The notes below the pieces were generated by a model. The model saw only the letters and a program-made list of their open reading frames with translations, ran no database searches and was not told the DNA's origin. Positions 1,609-9,761 of a stretch of 15,805 nt of DNA are shown piece by piece (positions within the stretch are counted from its first letter, which is position 1; every line of letters begins with the position of its first letter). Both the position numbers and the translations under genes were made by a program. Location of the stretch: the IMG/VR virus record IMGVR_UViG_2541047722_000005; one strand, given 5' to 3'. The DNA comes from a virus. Lineage: Duplodnaviria > Heunggongvirae > Uroviricota > Caudoviricetes.

Positions 1609-1620
1609 GGGCGGCGACCT
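1609..1620. other. cosN: cosN cohesive-end sequence (GGGCGGCGACCT)
   Basis: aggttacgGGGCGGCGACCTcgcgg at 1601-1625 matches my recollection of the lambda cos junction (right end ...AGGTTACG joined to left end GGGCGGCGACCTCGCGG...). It lies ~180 bp upstream of the Nu1 homologue, as in lambda. Confidence 0.85.
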
Positions 1621-6024: not shown

Positions 6025-7519
6025 TCTTTCACACATTATTGCCGCAGCATTCAATGAACCGCTGCTTCTGGAGCCCGCCTATGCGCGGGTTTTCTTTTGC
6101 GCGCTCGGGCGCGAGATGGGGGCAGCAAGTCTTTCGGTACCACAACAGCAGGTACAGTTTGATGCTCCCGGAATGCTGGCTGAAACGGACGAGTACATGG
6201 CCGGAGGTAAACGACCGGCCCGTGTTTACCGGGTGGTGAACGGTATTGCTGTACTGCCGGTGACCGGCACGCTGGTGCACCGGCTGGGTGGTATGCGGCC
6301 ATTTTCCGGAATGACAGGCTATGACGGCATTGTCGCCTGTCTTCAGCAGGCAATGGCGGATAGCCAGGTGCGGGGCGTACTGCTGGACATTGACAGTCCG
6401 GGCGGGCAGGCCGCCGGCGCGTTTGACTGCGCTGACATGATTTACCGCCTCCGTCAGCAGAAGCCGGTCTGGGCACTGTGCAATGACACGGCCTGTTCTG
6501 CAGCCATGCTGCTGGCGTCGGCCTGCTCCCGACGGCTGGTTACCCAGACATCCCGTATCGGCTCCATTGGCGTGATGATGAGCCATGTCAGCTATGCCGG
6601 TCATCTGGCGCAGGCCGGTGTGGATATCACGCTGATTTACTCAGGGGCGCACAAGGTGGATGGCAATCAGTTTGAAGCGTTGCCGGCAGAGGTTCGCCAG
6701 GACATGCAGCAGCGGATTGATGCGGCGCGCCGGATGTTTGCCGAAAAAGTGGCGATGTATACCGGTCTGTCTGTTGATGCCGTCACGGGAACAGAGGCTG
6801 CCGTTTTTGAAGGTCAGTCCGGCATTGAGGCCGGGCTGGCGGATGAATTAATCAATGCGTCGGATGCCATCAGTGTGATGGCCACGGCGCTGAACAGTAA
6901 TGTCAGAGGAGGCACTATGCCGCAATTAACTGCAACGGAAGCCGCCGCGCAGGAGAACCAGCGAGTGATGGGGATCCTGACATGCCAGGAAGCGAAAGGA
7001 CGTGAACAGCTTGCCACGATGCTGGCAGGACAACAGGGCATGAGCGTTGAACAGGCCCGGGCGATTCTGGCCGCGGCGGCACCGCAGCAGCCGGTGGCAT
7101 CCACGCAGAGTGAAGCCGATCGCATTATGGTGTGTGAAGAAGCGAACGGTCGTGAACAACTGGCGGCAACGCTGGCGGCGATGCCGGAGATGACGGTGGA
7201 AAAAGCCCGCCCGATCCTGGCTGCTTCACCGCAGGCGGATGCCGGACCATCACTCCGTGATCAGATCATGGCACTGGATGAGGCAAAAGGGGCTGAGGCG
7301 CAGGCTGAACAGCTGGCTGCCTGCCCGGGAATGACAGTGGAGAGCGCCCGGGCTGTGCTGGCTGCGGGATCAGGTAAGGCAGAACCGGTCTCTGCATCCA
7401 CAACCGCCATGTTTGAACATTTCATGGCGAACCATTCACCGGCAGCGGTACAGGGTGGCGTGGCACAGACGTCAGCAGACGGTGATGCGGACGTGAAAAT
7501 GCTCATGGCCATGCCATGA
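6014..7519 (+). CDS. C: Head maturation protease / minor capsid protein C homologue (501 aa), with C-terminal scaffold (Nu3-like) portion
   Basis: GTG start 6014 (VRRNLSHIIAAAFNEPLLLEPAYARVFFCAL matches lambda gpC N-terminus ...NLPHIASMAFNEPLMLEPAYARVFFCAL as recalled). Central region has S49/ClpP-like features (DIDSPGG, GAFDCAD, PVWAL.ND..CSA..LLASA.SRRLVTQT.R.GSIGVMM.H). About 60 aa longer than lambda C because of a tandem repeat expansion in the C-terminal part. Confidence 0.88.
   Translation: MRRNLSHIIAAAFNEPLLLEPAYARVFFCALGREMGAASLSVPQQQVQFDAPGMLAETDEYMAGGKRPARVYRVVNGIAVLPVTGTLVHRLGGMRPFSGMTGYDGIVACLQQAMADSQVRGVLLDIDSPGGQAAGAFDCADMIYRLRQQKPVWALCNDTACSAAMLLASACSRRLVTQTSRIGSIGVMMSHVSYAGHLAQAGVDITLIYSGAHKVDGNQFEALPAEVRQDMQQRIDAARRMFAEKVAMYTGLSVDAVTGTEAAVFEGQSGIEAGLADELINASDAISVMATALNSNVRGGTMPQLTATEAAAQENQRVMGILTCQEAKGREQLATMLAGQQGMSVEQARAILAAAAPQQPVASTQSEADRIMVCEEANGREQLAATLAAMPEMTVEKARPILAASPQADAGPSLRDQIMALDEAKGAEAQAEQLAACPGMTVESARAVLAAGSGKAEPVSASTTAMFEHFMANHSPAAVQGGVAQTSADGDADVKMLMAMP
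6704..7519 (+). CDS. nu3: Possible nested in-frame scaffold protein (Nu3-like), translated from an internal start of C
   Basis: By analogy with lambda, where Nu3 is the C-terminal in-frame portion of C. In-frame ATG 6704 (MQQRIDAARRMFAEKV...) with AGAGG 11 nt upstream; aligns with the lambda Nu3 start region (MDATRQMFAQKV) as recalled. ATG 6734 is an alternative. The start is inferred, not demonstrated. Confidence 0.35.
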   Translation: MQQRIDAARRMFAEKVAMYTGLSVDAVTGTEAAVFEGQSGIEAGLADELINASDAISVMATALNSNVRGGTMPQLTATEAAAQENQRVMGILTCQEAKGREQLATMLAGQQGMSVEQARAILAAAAPQQPVASTQSEADRIMVCEEANGREQLAATLAAMPEMTVEKARPILAASPQADAGPSLRDQIMALDEAKGAEAQAEQLAACPGMTVESARAVLAAGSGKAEPVSASTTAMFEHFMANHSPAAVQGGVAQTSADGDADVKMLMAMP

Positions 7520-7555
7520 AGTCAGTGCTGACCATCAATAGGAGGTTTTTACAAT

Positions 7556-7903
7556 ATGGTGACGAAAACCATCACTGAACAGCGTGCGGAAGTACGTATT
7601 TTTGCCGGTAATGATCCGGCTCATACCGCCACAGGCAGCAGCGGGATTTCCTCGCCAACACCGGCACTGACGCCCCTGATGCTGGATGAAGCCACCGGGA
7701 AACTGGTGGTCTGGGACGGACAGAAAGCCGGTAGTGCGGTTGGCATACTGGTACTGCCGCTTGAAGGCACAGAGACGGCGCTGACGTATTACAAGTCGGG
7801 AACCTTTGCGACGGAGGCAATCCACTGGCCTGAAAGTGTGGATGAACACAAAAAGGCCAACGCCTTTGCTGGCAGTGCCCTGAGTCACGCGGCGCTGCCG
7901 TAA
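7556..7903 (+). CDS. D: Head decoration protein (gpD homologue, 115 aa)
   Basis: AGGAGG (7540-7545) then ATG 7556; DPAHTAT...TPLMLD...KLV.WDG...AVGIL...LT.YKSGTF..E...WPE...K...AFAG.A matches lambda gpD as recalled. Confidence 0.9.
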   Translation: MVTKTITEQRAEVRIFAGNDPAHTATGSSGISSPTPALTPLMLDEATGKLVVWDGQKAGSAVGILVLPLEGTETALTYYKSGTFATEAIHWPESVDEHKKANAFAGSALSHAALP

Positions 7904-7910
7904 CACGTTA

Positions 7911-7932
7911 TCAGGCCACCGCGGTGGCCTGA
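7911..7932. repeat. 22-bp perfect palindrome TCAGGCCACCG|CGGTGGCCTGA in the D-E intergenic region
   Basis: Read directly from the sequence; GC-rich, centred on CCGCGG; not followed by a clean T-run. Confidence 0.8.
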
Positions 7933-7960
7933 CTGATTTCTGAATGAAAGGAACTGATTT

Positions 7961-8989
7961 ATGGGATTGTTTACGACCCGCCAGTTACTCGGTTATACCG
8001 AACAAAAAGTTAAATTTCGTGCGCTGTTTCTGGAGCTGTTTTTCCGCCGTACGGTGAATTTCCATACCGAAGAGGTGATGCTGGACAAAATTACCGGAAA
8101 AACGCCGGTGGCGGCCTATGTCTCCCCGGTTGTTGAAGGAAAAGTGCTGCGTCATCGTGGTGGTGAAACCCGCGTGTTGCGTCCGGGCTACGTCAAGCCG
8201 AAACACGAATTTAATTACCAGCAGGCGGTTGAGCGCCTTCCTGGTGAAGATCCATCTCAACTGAATGATCCGGCTTACCGCCGTCTGCGTATCATTACCG
8301 ATAACCTCAAACAGGAAGAGCACGCGATTGTCCAGGTGGAAGAAATGCAGGCGGTAAATGCTGTGTTGTATGGCAAATACACCATGGAAGGAGACCAGTT
8401 CGAGAAAATTGAGGTCGATTTTGGCAGGTCGACGAAGAATAACATCACTCAGGGTAGTGGTAAGGAGTGGTCAAAACAGGATCGTGACACGTTCGATCCT
8501 ACACATGATATTGACCTCTACTGCGACCTGGCCAGCGGTCTTGTGAATATTGCCATTATGGACGGTACCGTCTGGCGTCTTCTGAATGGTTTTAAGCTGT
8601 TCCGCGAAAAACTGGATACCCGTCGCGGTTCAAATTCTCAACTCGAAACGGCAGTGAAAGATCTGGGCGCAGTGGTGTCCTTCAAGGGGTATTACGGCGA
8701 TCTGGCCATTGTGGTGGCGAAAACGTCTTATATAGCAGAAGACGGTATCGAAAAACGTTATCTTCCAGATGGCATGCTGGTTCTGGGGAATACTGCTGCA
8801 GATGGGATCCGTTGTTACGGTGCCATTCAGGATGCTCAGGCGTTGTCCGAAGGTGTGGTGGCCTCTTCCCGTTATCCGAAACACTGGCTGACGGTAGGGG
8901 ATCCCGCCCGTGAATTTACCATGACGCAGTCCGCGCCGCTGATGGTGTTGCCGGACCCGGATGAGTTTGTGGTGGTACAGGTGAAATAA
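7961..8989 (+). CDS. E: Major capsid protein (gpE homologue, 342 aa)
   Basis: AAGGA 9 nt upstream of ATG 7961; similarity across the whole length to lambda gpE as recalled (PGYVKPKHE, RLP.EDP..L.DPAYRR.RII, AIVQVEEMQAV.AVL.GKYTM, KLDTRRGSNS.LETAVKDLG, RYPK.W.T.GDPAREFTM.QSAPLM.L.DPDEFV.VQ). Confidence 0.92.
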   Translation: MGLFTTRQLLGYTEQKVKFRALFLELFFRRTVNFHTEEVMLDKITGKTPVAAYVSPVVEGKVLRHRGGETRVLRPGYVKPKHEFNYQQAVERLPGEDPSQLNDPAYRRLRIITDNLKQEEHAIVQVEEMQAVNAVLYGKYTMEGDQFEKIEVDFGRSTKNNITQGSGKEWSKQDRDTFDPTHDIDLYCDLASGLVNIAIMDGTVWRLLNGFKLFREKLDTRRGSNSQLETAVKDLGAVVSFKGYYGDLAIVVAKTSYIAEDGIEKRYLPDGMLVLGNTAADGIRCYGAIQDAQALSEGVVASSRYPKHWLTVGDPAREFTMTQSAPLMVLPDPDEFVVVQVK

Positions 8990-8997
8990 TCCGTGAG

Positions 8998-9026
8998 CGG
9001 GGGCGAAATGCCCCCGTGTCTTTTTT
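8998..9026 (+). terminator. Candidate intrinsic terminator/attenuator immediately downstream of E
   Basis: 7-bp GC-rich stem CGGGGGC (8998-9004) / GCCCCCG (9010-9016), 5-nt loop GAAAT, then TGTC followed by TTTTTT (9021-9026). Lies between the E stop (8989) and the FI start (9041). Confidence 0.55.
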
Positions 9027-9040
9027 CACAGGGGGCTGAT

Positions 9041-9415
9041 ATGGCAACGAAAGAGCAAAATCTGAAACGGCTTGATGAACTGGCCCTGATTCTGGGGCGT
9101 GAGCCGGATATATCCGGGAGTGCCGCAGAGATAGCGCAGCGGGTGGCAGAATGGGAAGAGGAAATGCAGTCATCCGGCGATGATGTACAGGTTATGAATA
9201 TGGATATCCGGGAGCGGGAAACCGCGGCTCATGATGTTCGTGAGGAAACATCCGGCGCGTTAACGCGCATCAGAGTTCTGACCTGCCTCCATCTCTGTGG
9301 CGTTGATGGTGAAACGGGGGAATCCGTTGAGCTTGCGGATGTTGGTCGGGTGATTCTGATTATGTCCTCAGATGCAAAAACACACGTTGATGGTGGAATG
9401 GCTGTTTATGCGTGA
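9041..9415 (+). CDS. FI: DNA-packaging/head assembly protein FI homologue (124 aa from ATG 9041)
   Basis: Position between E and FII; GGGGG 6 nt upstream of ATG 9041; acidic protein. Sequence similarity to lambda FI is weak by my recollection, so the call is mainly positional. Confidence 0.6.
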   Translation: MATKEQNLKRLDELALILGREPDISGSAAEIAQRVAEWEEEMQSSGDDVQVMNMDIRERETAAHDVREETSGALTRIRVLTCLHLCGVDGETGESVELADVGRVILIMSSDAKTHVDGGMAVYA

Positions 9416-9761
9416 TTTTCAGAATGCCTTTGATGCCGCCCTTGCCGGGGTGGACAGTACGATTGTTGAAGTGATGGGCATCAGTGCGCAGTTCACCTCC
9501 GGTGCACAGCGTGGCGGCGAGGTTCATGGCGTTTTTGACGATCCGGAGTCGCTGGGTTTTGCCAGTAGTGGGATCCGTATTGAAGGAAGTAACCCGTCAT
9601 TATTTGTGCTTACGGATACGGTTTGTGCTGTACGGCGTGGTGACACGCTGACCATTAACGGCGAGATGTTCTGGGTGGACCGTGTTTCTCCGGATGACGG
9701 AGGGAGTTGTTATCTCTGGCTCAACCGGGGGCAACCACCTGCCGCCAGCCGTCGCCGCTGA
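9408..9761 (+). CDS. FII: Head-tail connector protein FII homologue (117 aa from ATG 9408)
   Basis: MRDFQNAFDAAL...GVFDDPE...G.R.EGS.PSLFV.TD.V...RRGDTLTI....FWVDRVSPDDGGSC.LWL.RG.PPA..RRR matches lambda FII as recalled, with the C-terminal third nearly identical. ATG 9408 overlaps the FI stop. Confidence 0.85.
   Translation: MRDFQNAFDAALAGVDSTIVEVMGISAQFTSGAQRGGEVHGVFDDPESLGFASSGIRIEGSNPSLFVLTDTVCAVRRGDTLTINGEMFWVDRVSPDDGGSCYLWLNRGQPPAASRRR

What the first reader, a model, noticed from the sequence alone, without database searches (positions are those of the whole stretch)
8998..9026. Intrinsic-terminator-like hairpin directly after the major capsid gene
A 7-bp GC stem with a 5-nt loop and a T6 run lies 9 nt after the E stop, with the FI ribosome-binding site right after it. 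In a Q-antiterminated late operon such a structure would not stop transcription completely, but it could act as an attenuator or 3' stabiliser that enriches transcript for the highly abundant capsid protein relative to downstream genes.
Basis: partly seen in the sequence, partly recalled or inferred. Interest (0 to 1): 0.45.

Follow-up and report, generated by a model that had tools for sequence, protein, structure and literature searches.

The report
Conserved RNA hairpin after capsid gene
A terminator-shaped RNA hairpin sits right after the major capsid gene of this phage 21-type virus; every relative examined has one too, and it most likely prolongs the life of the capsid message rather than stopping transcription, which is a known kind of device.

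Summary
CGGGGGC (8998-9004) pairs with GCCCCCG (9010-9016) around a GAAAT loop. T6 lies at 9021-9026. The E-homologue stop is 8987-8989 and the FI-homologue ATG is 9041. No other site in the window combines such a stem and T run, and about 0.1 is expected by chance.

The window is 99.75% identical to phage 21 from cos onward. The hairpin is under selection as + strand RNA. All 76 distinct E-FI junctions from about 260 loci, and 6 of 6 remote E-family phages, carry a GC hairpin at this position, built from about a dozen unrelated stem sequences. Among 21-type variants every stem change keeps pairing: five G.U changes and one compensatory pair. The 40-nt hairpin and T-run segment is unchanged where the flanking genes differ by 12-23%.

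A second conserved hairpin (7911-7932) follows D, so E is bracketed. These two spacers are the longest in the late operon.

T runs are weak or absent in many lineages, and Q21-loaded polymerase sterically blocks terminator hairpins. I therefore favour a post-transcriptional decay barrier over attenuation. Neither role has been measured.

This is a new member of a known kind. Interest is low to moderate.

The parts
7556..7903 (+). Head decoration gene (lambda D / phage 21 shp homologue), the cistron upstream of the first hairpin.
   Evidence: Pfam HDPD, E = 1.2e-24. Annotated in M81255.1 and OL657228.1.
7911..7932 (+). Companion hairpin in the D-E spacer: TCAGGCCAC-CGCG-GTGGCCTGA, a 9-bp stem forming a perfect 22-nt palindrome, followed by CTGATTTCTG.
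   Evidence: Second-ranked terminator-like site. Sequence read. A hairpin at this junction is present in nearly all of the ~85 distinct lambda-like D-E junctions surveyed; the exceptions are a few single-contig variants with a disrupted stem (L165, L010, L143, L112). Lambda has AAAGGCCGCCTGTGCGGCTTTTTTT.
7961..8989 (+). Major capsid gene (lambda E / phage 21 gene 7 homologue); stop TAA at 8987-8989.
   Evidence: Pfam Phage_cap_E, E = 6e-64. 100% identical to phage 21 gp7.
8990..8997 (+). 8-nt spacer TCCGTGAG between the stop codon and the stem.
   Evidence: Its predicted pairing with 9026-9033 is not supported across lineages.
8998..9016 (+). The hairpin of the finding: CGGGGGC / GAAAT / GCCCCCG. 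The stem can extend by G.U pairs 8997/9017 and 9005/9009.
   Evidence: In the 21-type alignment 100% of cells are paired, with five one-sided changes, all to G.U on the + strand, and one compensatory pair. Positional analogues occur in all relatives examined.
9017..9029 (+). Tail TGTC TTTTTT CAC; T6 at 9021-9026.
   Evidence: Together with the hairpin, this 40-nt segment (8990-9029) is 100% identical in relatives whose flanking coding DNA differs by 12% (E) and 20-23% (FI). T runs are weak or absent in several other lineages.
9031..9035 (+). Shine-Dalgarno GGGGG of the FI homologue.
   Evidence: Annotated as a ribosome-binding site in both phage 21 records. It varies to GGAGG or GAGGG in close relatives.
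9041..9415 (+). DNA packaging protein FI homologue (phage 21 ORF1), the cistron downstream of the hairpin.
   Evidence: Pfam Packaging_FI, E = 2.7e-16. Annotated.

Best explanation
The feature is an RNA stem-loop formed in the + strand late transcript immediately 3' of the major capsid cistron, and it is one of a pair that brackets that cistron; the other lies after D at 7911-7932. Shown here: the structure exists, it is single-copy, it sits in one of the only two long spacers of a tightly packed operon, and purifying selection maintains it as an RNA pairing in every relative examined. Inferred: in lytic growth the late operon is transcribed by Q-loaded polymerase, which does not respond to terminator hairpins, so the hairpin acts after transcription. 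When RNase E cuts the long late mRNA, 3'-to-5' exonucleases (PNPase, RNase II) degrade the fragments until they meet the hairpin. The E message, and likewise the D message, would then outlive the messages for low-copy neighbours such as FI and FII. This would help supply about 400 copies of each protein per head. The D-E hairpin may in addition give the E segment a structured 5' end, as in papA. The terminator-like shape also lets the hairpin stop polymerases that lack Q, but I take that as secondary. My confidence that it is a selected RNA structure is about 0.9. The confidence given below is for the decay-barrier mechanism.
For: A hairpin is present at 76 of 76 distinct E-FI junctions from about 260 loci (58-100% capsid identity), built on about a dozen unrelated stem sequences. 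It is also present in 6 of 6 remote E-family phages: P24, Chi, K290, BcepNazgul, 720R5 and RcMrWorf. Stem substitutions in 21-type variants never break pairing, and the one-sided changes are all C-to-T, giving G.U on the + strand only. The hairpin and T-run segment has 0 changes in 40 nt where the flanks differ by 12-23% (0.88^40 is about 0.006). The T run is much less conserved than the stem. It is absent or weak in Trabulsiella L011, in the L187 and L219 groups, and in P24, Chi and RcMrWorf, as expected if the stem rather than termination is the selected property. A second conserved hairpin follows D. D-E (57 nt) and E-FI (51 nt) are the two longest spacers among 18 late genes, most of which overlap. 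Phage 21 encodes Q21 with pR' and QBE. [quoted passage not shown] Lambda late genes are one 27-kb Q-dependent mRNA (10.1101/2023.05.14.540688). Protective 3' stem-loops (malE-malF) and hairpin-bracketed papA mRNA are established E. coli mechanisms for raising one cistron of an operon (PMC5927463).
Against: No transcript ends, abundances or half-lives were available for phage 21 or lambda at this junction, so the mechanism is inferred from anatomy and analogy. Most lineages do keep a T-rich tail (typically 4-7 T in 8 nt), which a pure exonuclease barrier does not need. The major tail gene V is also needed in high copy but has no such hairpin; the V-G spacer is 15 nt. From my own memory, and not checked here, the classical account (Sampson et al. 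1988) attributes lambda late-protein ratios to translation initiation.
Confidence: 0.45

Rival explanations
1. The hairpin is a partial intrinsic terminator (attenuator) during lytic growth. A fraction of late transcription complexes stop at 9020-9026, lowering transcript levels for FI and downstream genes relative to E.
For: It has the canonical shape and is the top-ranked terminator-like site. T-rich tails are enriched in most lineages. Terminators placed immediately after the major capsid gene are described for T7 and LUZ100 (PMC10134795).
Against: Q21-loaded polymerase is reported to block terminator hairpin formation processively. The T run is offset 4 nt from the GC core and is absent in several lineages that keep the stem. 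The equivalent hairpin after D would attenuate E itself. Abundant tail proteins such as V lie downstream and would be attenuated as well.
Confidence: 0.2
2. The hairpin is a terminator that matters only for polymerases lacking Q. It would insulate the late region against stray or read-through transcription in the lysogen or early in infection.
For: An unmodified polymerase should recognise a 7-9 bp GC stem followed by T6. The pair of hairpins flanks the capsid gene.
Against: A terminator placed after E cannot prevent expression of E itself. No promoter-like site that would need insulating lies nearby on the + strand other than weak consensus matches. This reading does not explain lineages with no T run.
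Confidence: 0.12
3. The element serves translation of FI. The hairpin would keep the FI ribosome-binding region from pairing with E coding sequence, or it would couple or decouple FI initiation from E termination. The U run would act as a single-stranded standby or S1-binding platform upstream of the Shine-Dalgarno sequence.
For: The hairpin end lies a fairly constant 17-31 nt (mostly 18-28) before the FI start, with the Shine-Dalgarno sequence directly after the T-rich segment, in the lambda-like lineages; L096 and L097 are closer at 12-13 nt. In the window the minimum-energy fold pairs 8990-8996 with 9026-9033, which includes part of the Shine-Dalgarno sequence.
Against: The pairing between the post-stop spacer and the Shine-Dalgarno region is not better than shuffled spacers in any of nine sequence clusters (window p = 0.17; Fisher combined p = 0.92). 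The GGGGG Shine-Dalgarno sequence changes to GGAGG or GAGGG with no compensating change. The same kind of hairpin follows capsid genes whose downstream gene is not FI.
Confidence: 0.1
4. The hairpin and U tail form the 3' module of an Hfq-type small RNA processed from the end of the E message.
For: A GC hairpin followed by a U run is the usual Hfq-binding 3' end. Lambda does make Hfq-bound small RNAs from terminator-like sites (10.1101/2024.10.31.621285).
Against: The lambda RIL-seq study reported only LPR1, LPR2 and 6S RNA, none of them at E-FI. No conserved single-stranded seed lies upstream, because that region is capsid coding sequence. Many lineages lack the U tail.
Confidence: 0.03
5. 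It is a chance inverted repeat with no function.
For: GC-rich coding DNA in the window holds several hairpins of equal or better folding energy.
Against: About 0.1 sites of this quality are expected per window. A hairpin is present at the same junction in all relatives examined, with different sequences and pair-preserving substitutions, and with zero changes amid 12-23% flanking divergence.
Confidence: 0.02

Closest known systems
Protective 3' stem-loops inside polycistronic mRNAs (the malE-malF intercistronic structure; the structures catalogued by Dar and Sorek 2018, PMC5927463)
   Same: A stable stem-loop lies just 3' of the cistron whose product is needed in excess, inside an operon transcript, in an E. 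coli host with RNase E, PNPase and RNase II. The structure is conserved among relatives.
   Different: The malE-malF element is a REP repeat present in many genomic copies, whereas this hairpin is single-copy and has a terminator-like T run. Most structures in the 2018 catalogue lie inside the downstream coding sequence, whereas this one has its own spacer. Stabilisation has not been measured here.
papBA operon: papA (major pilin) mRNA bounded by a 5' hairpin and a 3' terminator hairpin
   Same: The cistron for the most abundant structural subunit is bracketed by two hairpins within a longer transcript.
   Different: In pap the 3' hairpin is the real end of the transcription unit, and RNase E cleavage upstream of the 5' hairpin has been mapped. 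Here both hairpins are internal to a transcript of about 27 kb, and no cleavage site is known.
Canonical intrinsic (Rho-independent) terminators, e.g. the tR' annotated in phage 21 at 39543-39590
   Same: A GC-rich stem of 7-9 bp, a short loop and a T run on the transcribed strand.
   Different: The hairpin lies in the middle of an antiterminated operon, about 10.8 kb from the pR' start. Its T run is offset by 4 nt. Its positional analogues in other lineages often have no T run.
Terminator immediately downstream of the major capsid gene in T7 (T-phi) and LUZ100
   Same: A strong hairpin directly follows the capsid gene, and it is interpreted as tuning capsid expression relative to later genes (PMC10134795).
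   Different: Those phages use a phage-encoded single-subunit polymerase and a local capsid promoter. There is no Q-type antitermination and no sequence relationship.
Lambda's own E-FI hairpin (ATGGCCC-TTCG-GGGCCAT, then TGTTTCTCT) and D-E hairpin (AAAGGCCGCCTGTGCGGCTTTTTTT)
   Same: They occupy the same two junctions, the same strand and the same position relative to the stop codon and the next ribosome-binding site.
   Different: The stem and loop sequences are entirely different. In lambda the strong T run is on the D-E hairpin, and in the window it is on the E-FI hairpin.

Membership tests
Intrinsic (Rho-independent) terminator | GC-rich stem of about 5-14 bp with a loop of 3-8 nt on the transcribed strand | tested here: met
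   A 7-bp GC core extendable to 9 pairs, with a loop of 5 (or 3) nt.
Intrinsic (Rho-independent) terminator | U-rich tract immediately following the stem | tested here: inconclusive
   T6 is present but begins 4 nt after the GC core; the tail reads UGUCUUUUUU. Positional analogues range from T7 to no T run at all.
Intrinsic (Rho-independent) terminator | Transcripts actually end there, and the site marks the end of a transcription unit | not testable with these tools
   No 3'-end data were found. The position is internal to the late operon, between two essential head genes. Q21-loaded polymerase is reported to be terminator-resistant.
Protective 3' stem-loop / decay barrier in a polycistronic mRNA | Stable stem-loop directly 3' of a cistron inside a longer transcript | tested here: met
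   The hairpin starts 8 nt after the E stop and ends 24 nt before the FI start, in an operon with otherwise overlapping genes.
Protective 3' stem-loop / decay barrier in a polycistronic mRNA | Structure, rather than sequence, conserved among relatives | tested here: met
   76 of 76 junctions and 6 of 6 remote phages carry a hairpin, with unrelated stems and pair-preserving substitutions.
Protective 3' stem-loop / decay barrier in a polycistronic mRNA | Upstream segment has a longer half-life or higher steady-state level, with 3' ends accumulating at the hairpin | not testable with these tools
   No decay or 3'-end data for phage 21 or lambda late mRNA were retrievable.
REP/BIME repeated extragenic palindromes | Multi-copy element with a shared consensus | tested here: not met
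   There is a single copy in the window at up to 3 mismatches. Each phage lineage has a different stem sequence.
Any curated RNA family (Rfam 15) | Match to a covariance model | tested here: not met
   No hit at gathering thresholds over the whole window. No hit at E <= 1 in 7850-9150.

The most novel reading that the evidence does not exclude
In lambda-like phages generally, the major capsid cistron is cut out of the roughly 27-kb late transcript as a discrete mRNA bracketed by hairpins: the D-E hairpin at its 5' side and the E-FI hairpin at its 3' end. Differential mRNA decay would then be a conserved and so far unrecognised layer, alongside translation initiation, in setting head-protein stoichiometry. 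The same logic would extend to the hairpin found after E-family capsid genes in Chi-like, Nazgul-like, marine and Rhodobacter phages.
Probability: 0.3. Interest if true: 0.5.

Novelty: new member of a known kind. Interest (0 to 1): 0.3.

Why it matters
How a single antiterminated transcript yields proteins in ratios spanning hundreds-fold is a classic question for lambda-type phages. From memory, and not verified here, the textbook answer is translation initiation. A structure conserved at the 3' end of the capsid cistron, paired with a second one at its 5' side, points to a testable contribution from mRNA stability. It also gives a simple rule for annotators: expect a hairpin after E-family capsid genes. 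The practical consequences are modest. People engineering D or E fusions, display vectors or refactored lambdoid genomes should keep these spacers. The detailed phage 21 record could annotate two stem-loops it currently omits. Nothing here overturns known biology.

Tried and rejected
1. Outer helix. The minimum-energy fold pairs the pyrimidine stretch after the E stop (8990-8996) with 9026-9033, including part of the FI Shine-Dalgarno sequence, and similar pairings appeared in Gifsy-1-type and other lineages. A permutation test on nine sequence clusters gave p = 0.17 for the window and a combined p = 0.92. The Shine-Dalgarno sequence also varies without compensation. Rejected as a general feature.

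2. E-FI read-through fusion. In the window E and FI share a reading frame, with only the TAA and 17 sense codons between them. The spacer is 50, 51 or 52 nt in close relatives, so the frame is not conserved. Rejected.

3. ATG in the loop. The ATG at 9008 and the GTG at 8993 extend the FI frame upstream. Neither has a ribosome-binding site, and the annotated start at 9041 matches homologues. Treated as mechanical.

4. Minus-strand terminator. The reverse complement folds but is followed by CTCACGGATT, with no T run.

5. Repeat element or known RNA family. No evidence for either.

6. Small RNA. The lambda RIL-seq study reports nothing at this junction.

7. Literature. Searches for a description of the lambda or phage 21 E-FI hairpin, or for 3'-end or decay data on late mRNA, found nothing usable. 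Liu et al. 2013 and Casjens and Hendrix 2015 were not held. The RIL-seq supplementary tables as stored list E. coli genes only.

8. Technical failures. My first two attempts to locate FI starts automatically were fooled by the in-loop ATG, and one script timed out. The analysis was redone.

Full report
**What the window is**

The region around the finding is 100% identical to Escherichia phage 21 (M81255.1, OL657228.1) and to several phage 21-type phages. From cosN (GGGCGGCGACCT, window 1609-1620) onward the window is colinear with the phage 21 genome, with 35 mismatches in 14,197 nt. The first 1,608 nt resemble the right end of phage 21 less closely.

Pfam confirms the following genes:
- head decoration protein D/shp, 7556-7903
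- major capsid protein E/gp7, 7961-8989
- packaging protein FI/ORF1, 9041-9415
- FII, 9408-9761

**The observation**

The sequence reads TAA(8987-8989)-tccgtgag-CGGGGGC(8998-9004)-GAAAT-GCCCCCG(9010-9016)-tgtc-TTTTTT(9021-9026)-cac-aGGGGGc-tgat-ATG(9041).

- The consensus scan ranks this site first of 36 terminator-like sites.
- With a stricter definition (at least 7 bp, at least 6 GC pairs, at least 6 T in the next 10 nt) it is the only site on either strand. Markov-1 simulations expect 0.10 per window.
- The 19-mer is single-copy.
- Rfam gives nothing, either at gathering thresholds or at E <= 1.

Two caveats apply. By folding energy alone it is only the 9th best 32-nt window on the + strand of this GC-rich DNA, and the 66-nt junction as a whole is not unusual (z = -1.08). 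The T run also starts 4 nt after the GC core.

**Comparative evidence**

Lambda has a different hairpin at the same place, ATGGCCC-TTCG-GGGCCAT followed by TGTTTCTCT. Gifsy-1 has a third, AAAGGCCTG-ATT-CAGGCCTTT.

I collected about 260 loci carrying capsid genes 58-100% identical to the window's. They gave 76 distinct E-FI spacers.
- Every spacer has a compact GC hairpin of 5-10 bp between the stop and the FI start.
- Five further junction variants were set aside because no FI start could be called automatically; their sequences also show a hairpin.
- The hairpins are built on about a dozen unrelated stem sequences.

Six remote E-family phages with 24-55% capsid identity each have one as well: Alteromonas P24, Chi, Vibrio K290, BcepNazgul, vB_EcoM-720R5 and Rhodobacter RcMrWorf.

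Within the 21-type group of 17 distinct spacers (alignment A1):
- All 136 stem cells form standard pairs.
- The five one-sided substitutions are all C-to-T, giving G.U on the + strand RNA. They would be C.A mismatches on the other strand.
- One pair has changed on both sides, G-C to A-U.
- The shuffle control in that tool is not significant (57 of 500), because variation is sparse. If G-to-A and C-to-T were equally likely, five of five would occur 1 time in 32.

In relatives whose E 3' region differs by 12% and FI 5' region by 20-23%, the 40 nt from 8990 to 9029 show no change at all. At the lower of those rates, 0.88^40 is about 0.006.

I conclude that this is a selected RNA structure on the late transcript.

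**A second hairpin**

The next best terminator-like site in the window lies in the D-E spacer. It is TCAGGCCAC-CGCG-GTGGCCTGA at 7911-7932.
- A hairpin occupies this junction in nearly all of the ~85 distinct lambda-like junction variants surveyed. The exceptions are four single-contig variants with a disrupted stem (L165, L010, L143, L112). The T run is usually strong, as in lambda's AAAGGCCGCCTGTGCGGCTTTTTTT.
- It is absent in P24, Chi, BcepNazgul and RcMrWorf.

In the curated phage 21 record, 12 of the 15 junctions among the late genes are overlaps or gaps of at most 15 nt. The exceptions are C-D (36 nt), D-E (57 nt) and E-FI (51 nt). The only sizeable spacers are therefore the ones that hold hairpins, and together they bracket the capsid gene.

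**Mechanism**

Phage 21 encodes Q21, pR', the Q-binding element and tR'. The E-FI hairpin lies about 10.8 kb into the late transcript.

[quoted passage not shown] It also states that antitermination is processive over tens of thousands of nucleotides (10.1101/651190). Lambda late genes are expressed as one 27-kb Q-dependent mRNA (10.1101/2023.05.14.540688). Significant termination at 9020-9026 during lytic growth is therefore unlikely.

Three further points argue against attenuation as the main role:
- The stem is universal, but the T run is not.
- A terminator after D would lower E itself.
- The abundant tail protein V is encoded downstream.

E. coli is known to reshape operon stoichiometry by differential decay. 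In malEFG, a 3' stem-loop shields the upstream cistron from PNPase and RNase II after RNase E cleavage. In papBA, the major pilin message is bounded by a 5' hairpin and a 3' terminator hairpin (PMC5927463).

The anatomy here fits that scheme. My best explanation is a decay barrier that prolongs the life of the E message, and likewise the D message. This is inference, because no 3'-end, abundance or half-life data were available.

**Rival explanations**

- A leaky attenuator remains possible (0.2), and the two roles are not exclusive.
- A terminator for Q-less polymerases only (0.12).
- A role in FI translation (0.1). This is weakened by a negative permutation test for pairing between the post-stop spacer and the Shine-Dalgarno region (combined p = 0.92), and by uncompensated Shine-Dalgarno variation.
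- An Hfq-type small RNA (0.03). The lambda RIL-seq work gives it no support.
- Chance (0.02).

**Comparison with what is known, and novelty**

The element works like known intercistronic protective hairpins and looks like an intrinsic terminator. It is not a REP element and not an Rfam family.

Hairpin terminators right after the capsid gene are described in T7-like phages (PMC10134795).

The most detailed phage 21 record annotates cos subsites, CII sites, pR', the Q-binding element and two terminators, but nothing at D-E or E-FI. M81255.1 annotates nothing there either.

I found no paper describing these hairpins, though much of the older lambda literature was not searchable.

I file this as a new member of a known kind. 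The element is real, conserved and sensible, but it would not surprise a specialist. The bracketing of E and the breadth of conservation are the most useful additions.

Noticed in passing
window 7911-7932: A perfect 22-nt palindrome hairpin lies in the D-E spacer and brackets the capsid gene together with the reported hairpin. A hairpin at this junction is conserved in nearly all lambda-like lineages surveyed (four single-contig variants have a disrupted stem), and it is absent in four remote E-family phages.
   Followed up: yes
L274 (ENA metagenome scaffold), L273 (Logan SRR30118411); proteins P0002, P0100, P0107: Three database entries encode in-frame E-FI fusion proteins caused by deletions of 62-108 nt that remove the E-FI spacer and its hairpin. 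The deletion endpoints lie at short direct repeats such as AACTGGCG and GATGA. The L273 contig otherwise has an intact lambda-type head and tail gene row. I could not tell whether these are real variants or artefacts.
   Followed up: partly
window 8987-9043: E and FI are in the same reading frame, with only the E TAA and 17 sense codons between them. The spacer length varies (50, 51 or 52 nt) in close relatives, so this looks accidental.
   Followed up: yes
window 1609-1620 and 1-1608: The cohesive-end sequence GGGCGGCGACCT (cosN) lies inside the window, so the window spans joined genome ends (prophage, circle or concatemer). The 1,608 nt before cos differ from phage 21's right end at 175 positions, against 35 in 14,197 nt after cos. 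This suggests a mosaic relative rather than phage 21 itself.
   Followed up: partly
L011 (Trabulsiella guamensis prophage), E-FI junction: A 9-bp hairpin (GCACCACGG...CCGTGGTGC) abuts the Shine-Dalgarno sequence directly, with no T run at all. This is the clearest case of a hairpin without a terminator tail.
   Followed up: partly
L178 / L010 (Shigella flexneri and viral contigs), E-FI junction: This is a variant of the 21-type hairpin with a compensatory G-C to A-U change (CGGGAGC/GCTCCCG), a changed loop, and the T run moved directly against the stem (CCCGTTTTTCATTC).
   Followed up: yes
window 7520-7555: The C-D spacer (36 nt) is the third non-trivial gap in the late operon. It holds a weak sigma-70-like match (CTGACC-16-TACAAT, 7528-7555) but no hairpin.
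   Followed up: no
window about 6922-6935 and 7156-7169, minus strand: The phage 21 record annotates two CII-binding-site matches (ttgyN6ttgy) inside the C/Nu3 gene on the opposite strand. I did not examine them.
   Followed up: no
window about 7124-7234 and 7265-7378: M81255.1 annotates 'Tri box' repeats of unknown function inside the scaffold gene. I did not examine them.
   Followed up: no
L265-L270: Capsid genes only 24-55% identical to E (Alteromonas P24, Chi, Vibrio K290, BcepNazgul, vB_EcoM-720R5, RcMrWorf) are all followed by a GC hairpin, even though the downstream gene is often not FI. This suggests a general rule for this capsid family.
   Followed up: partly
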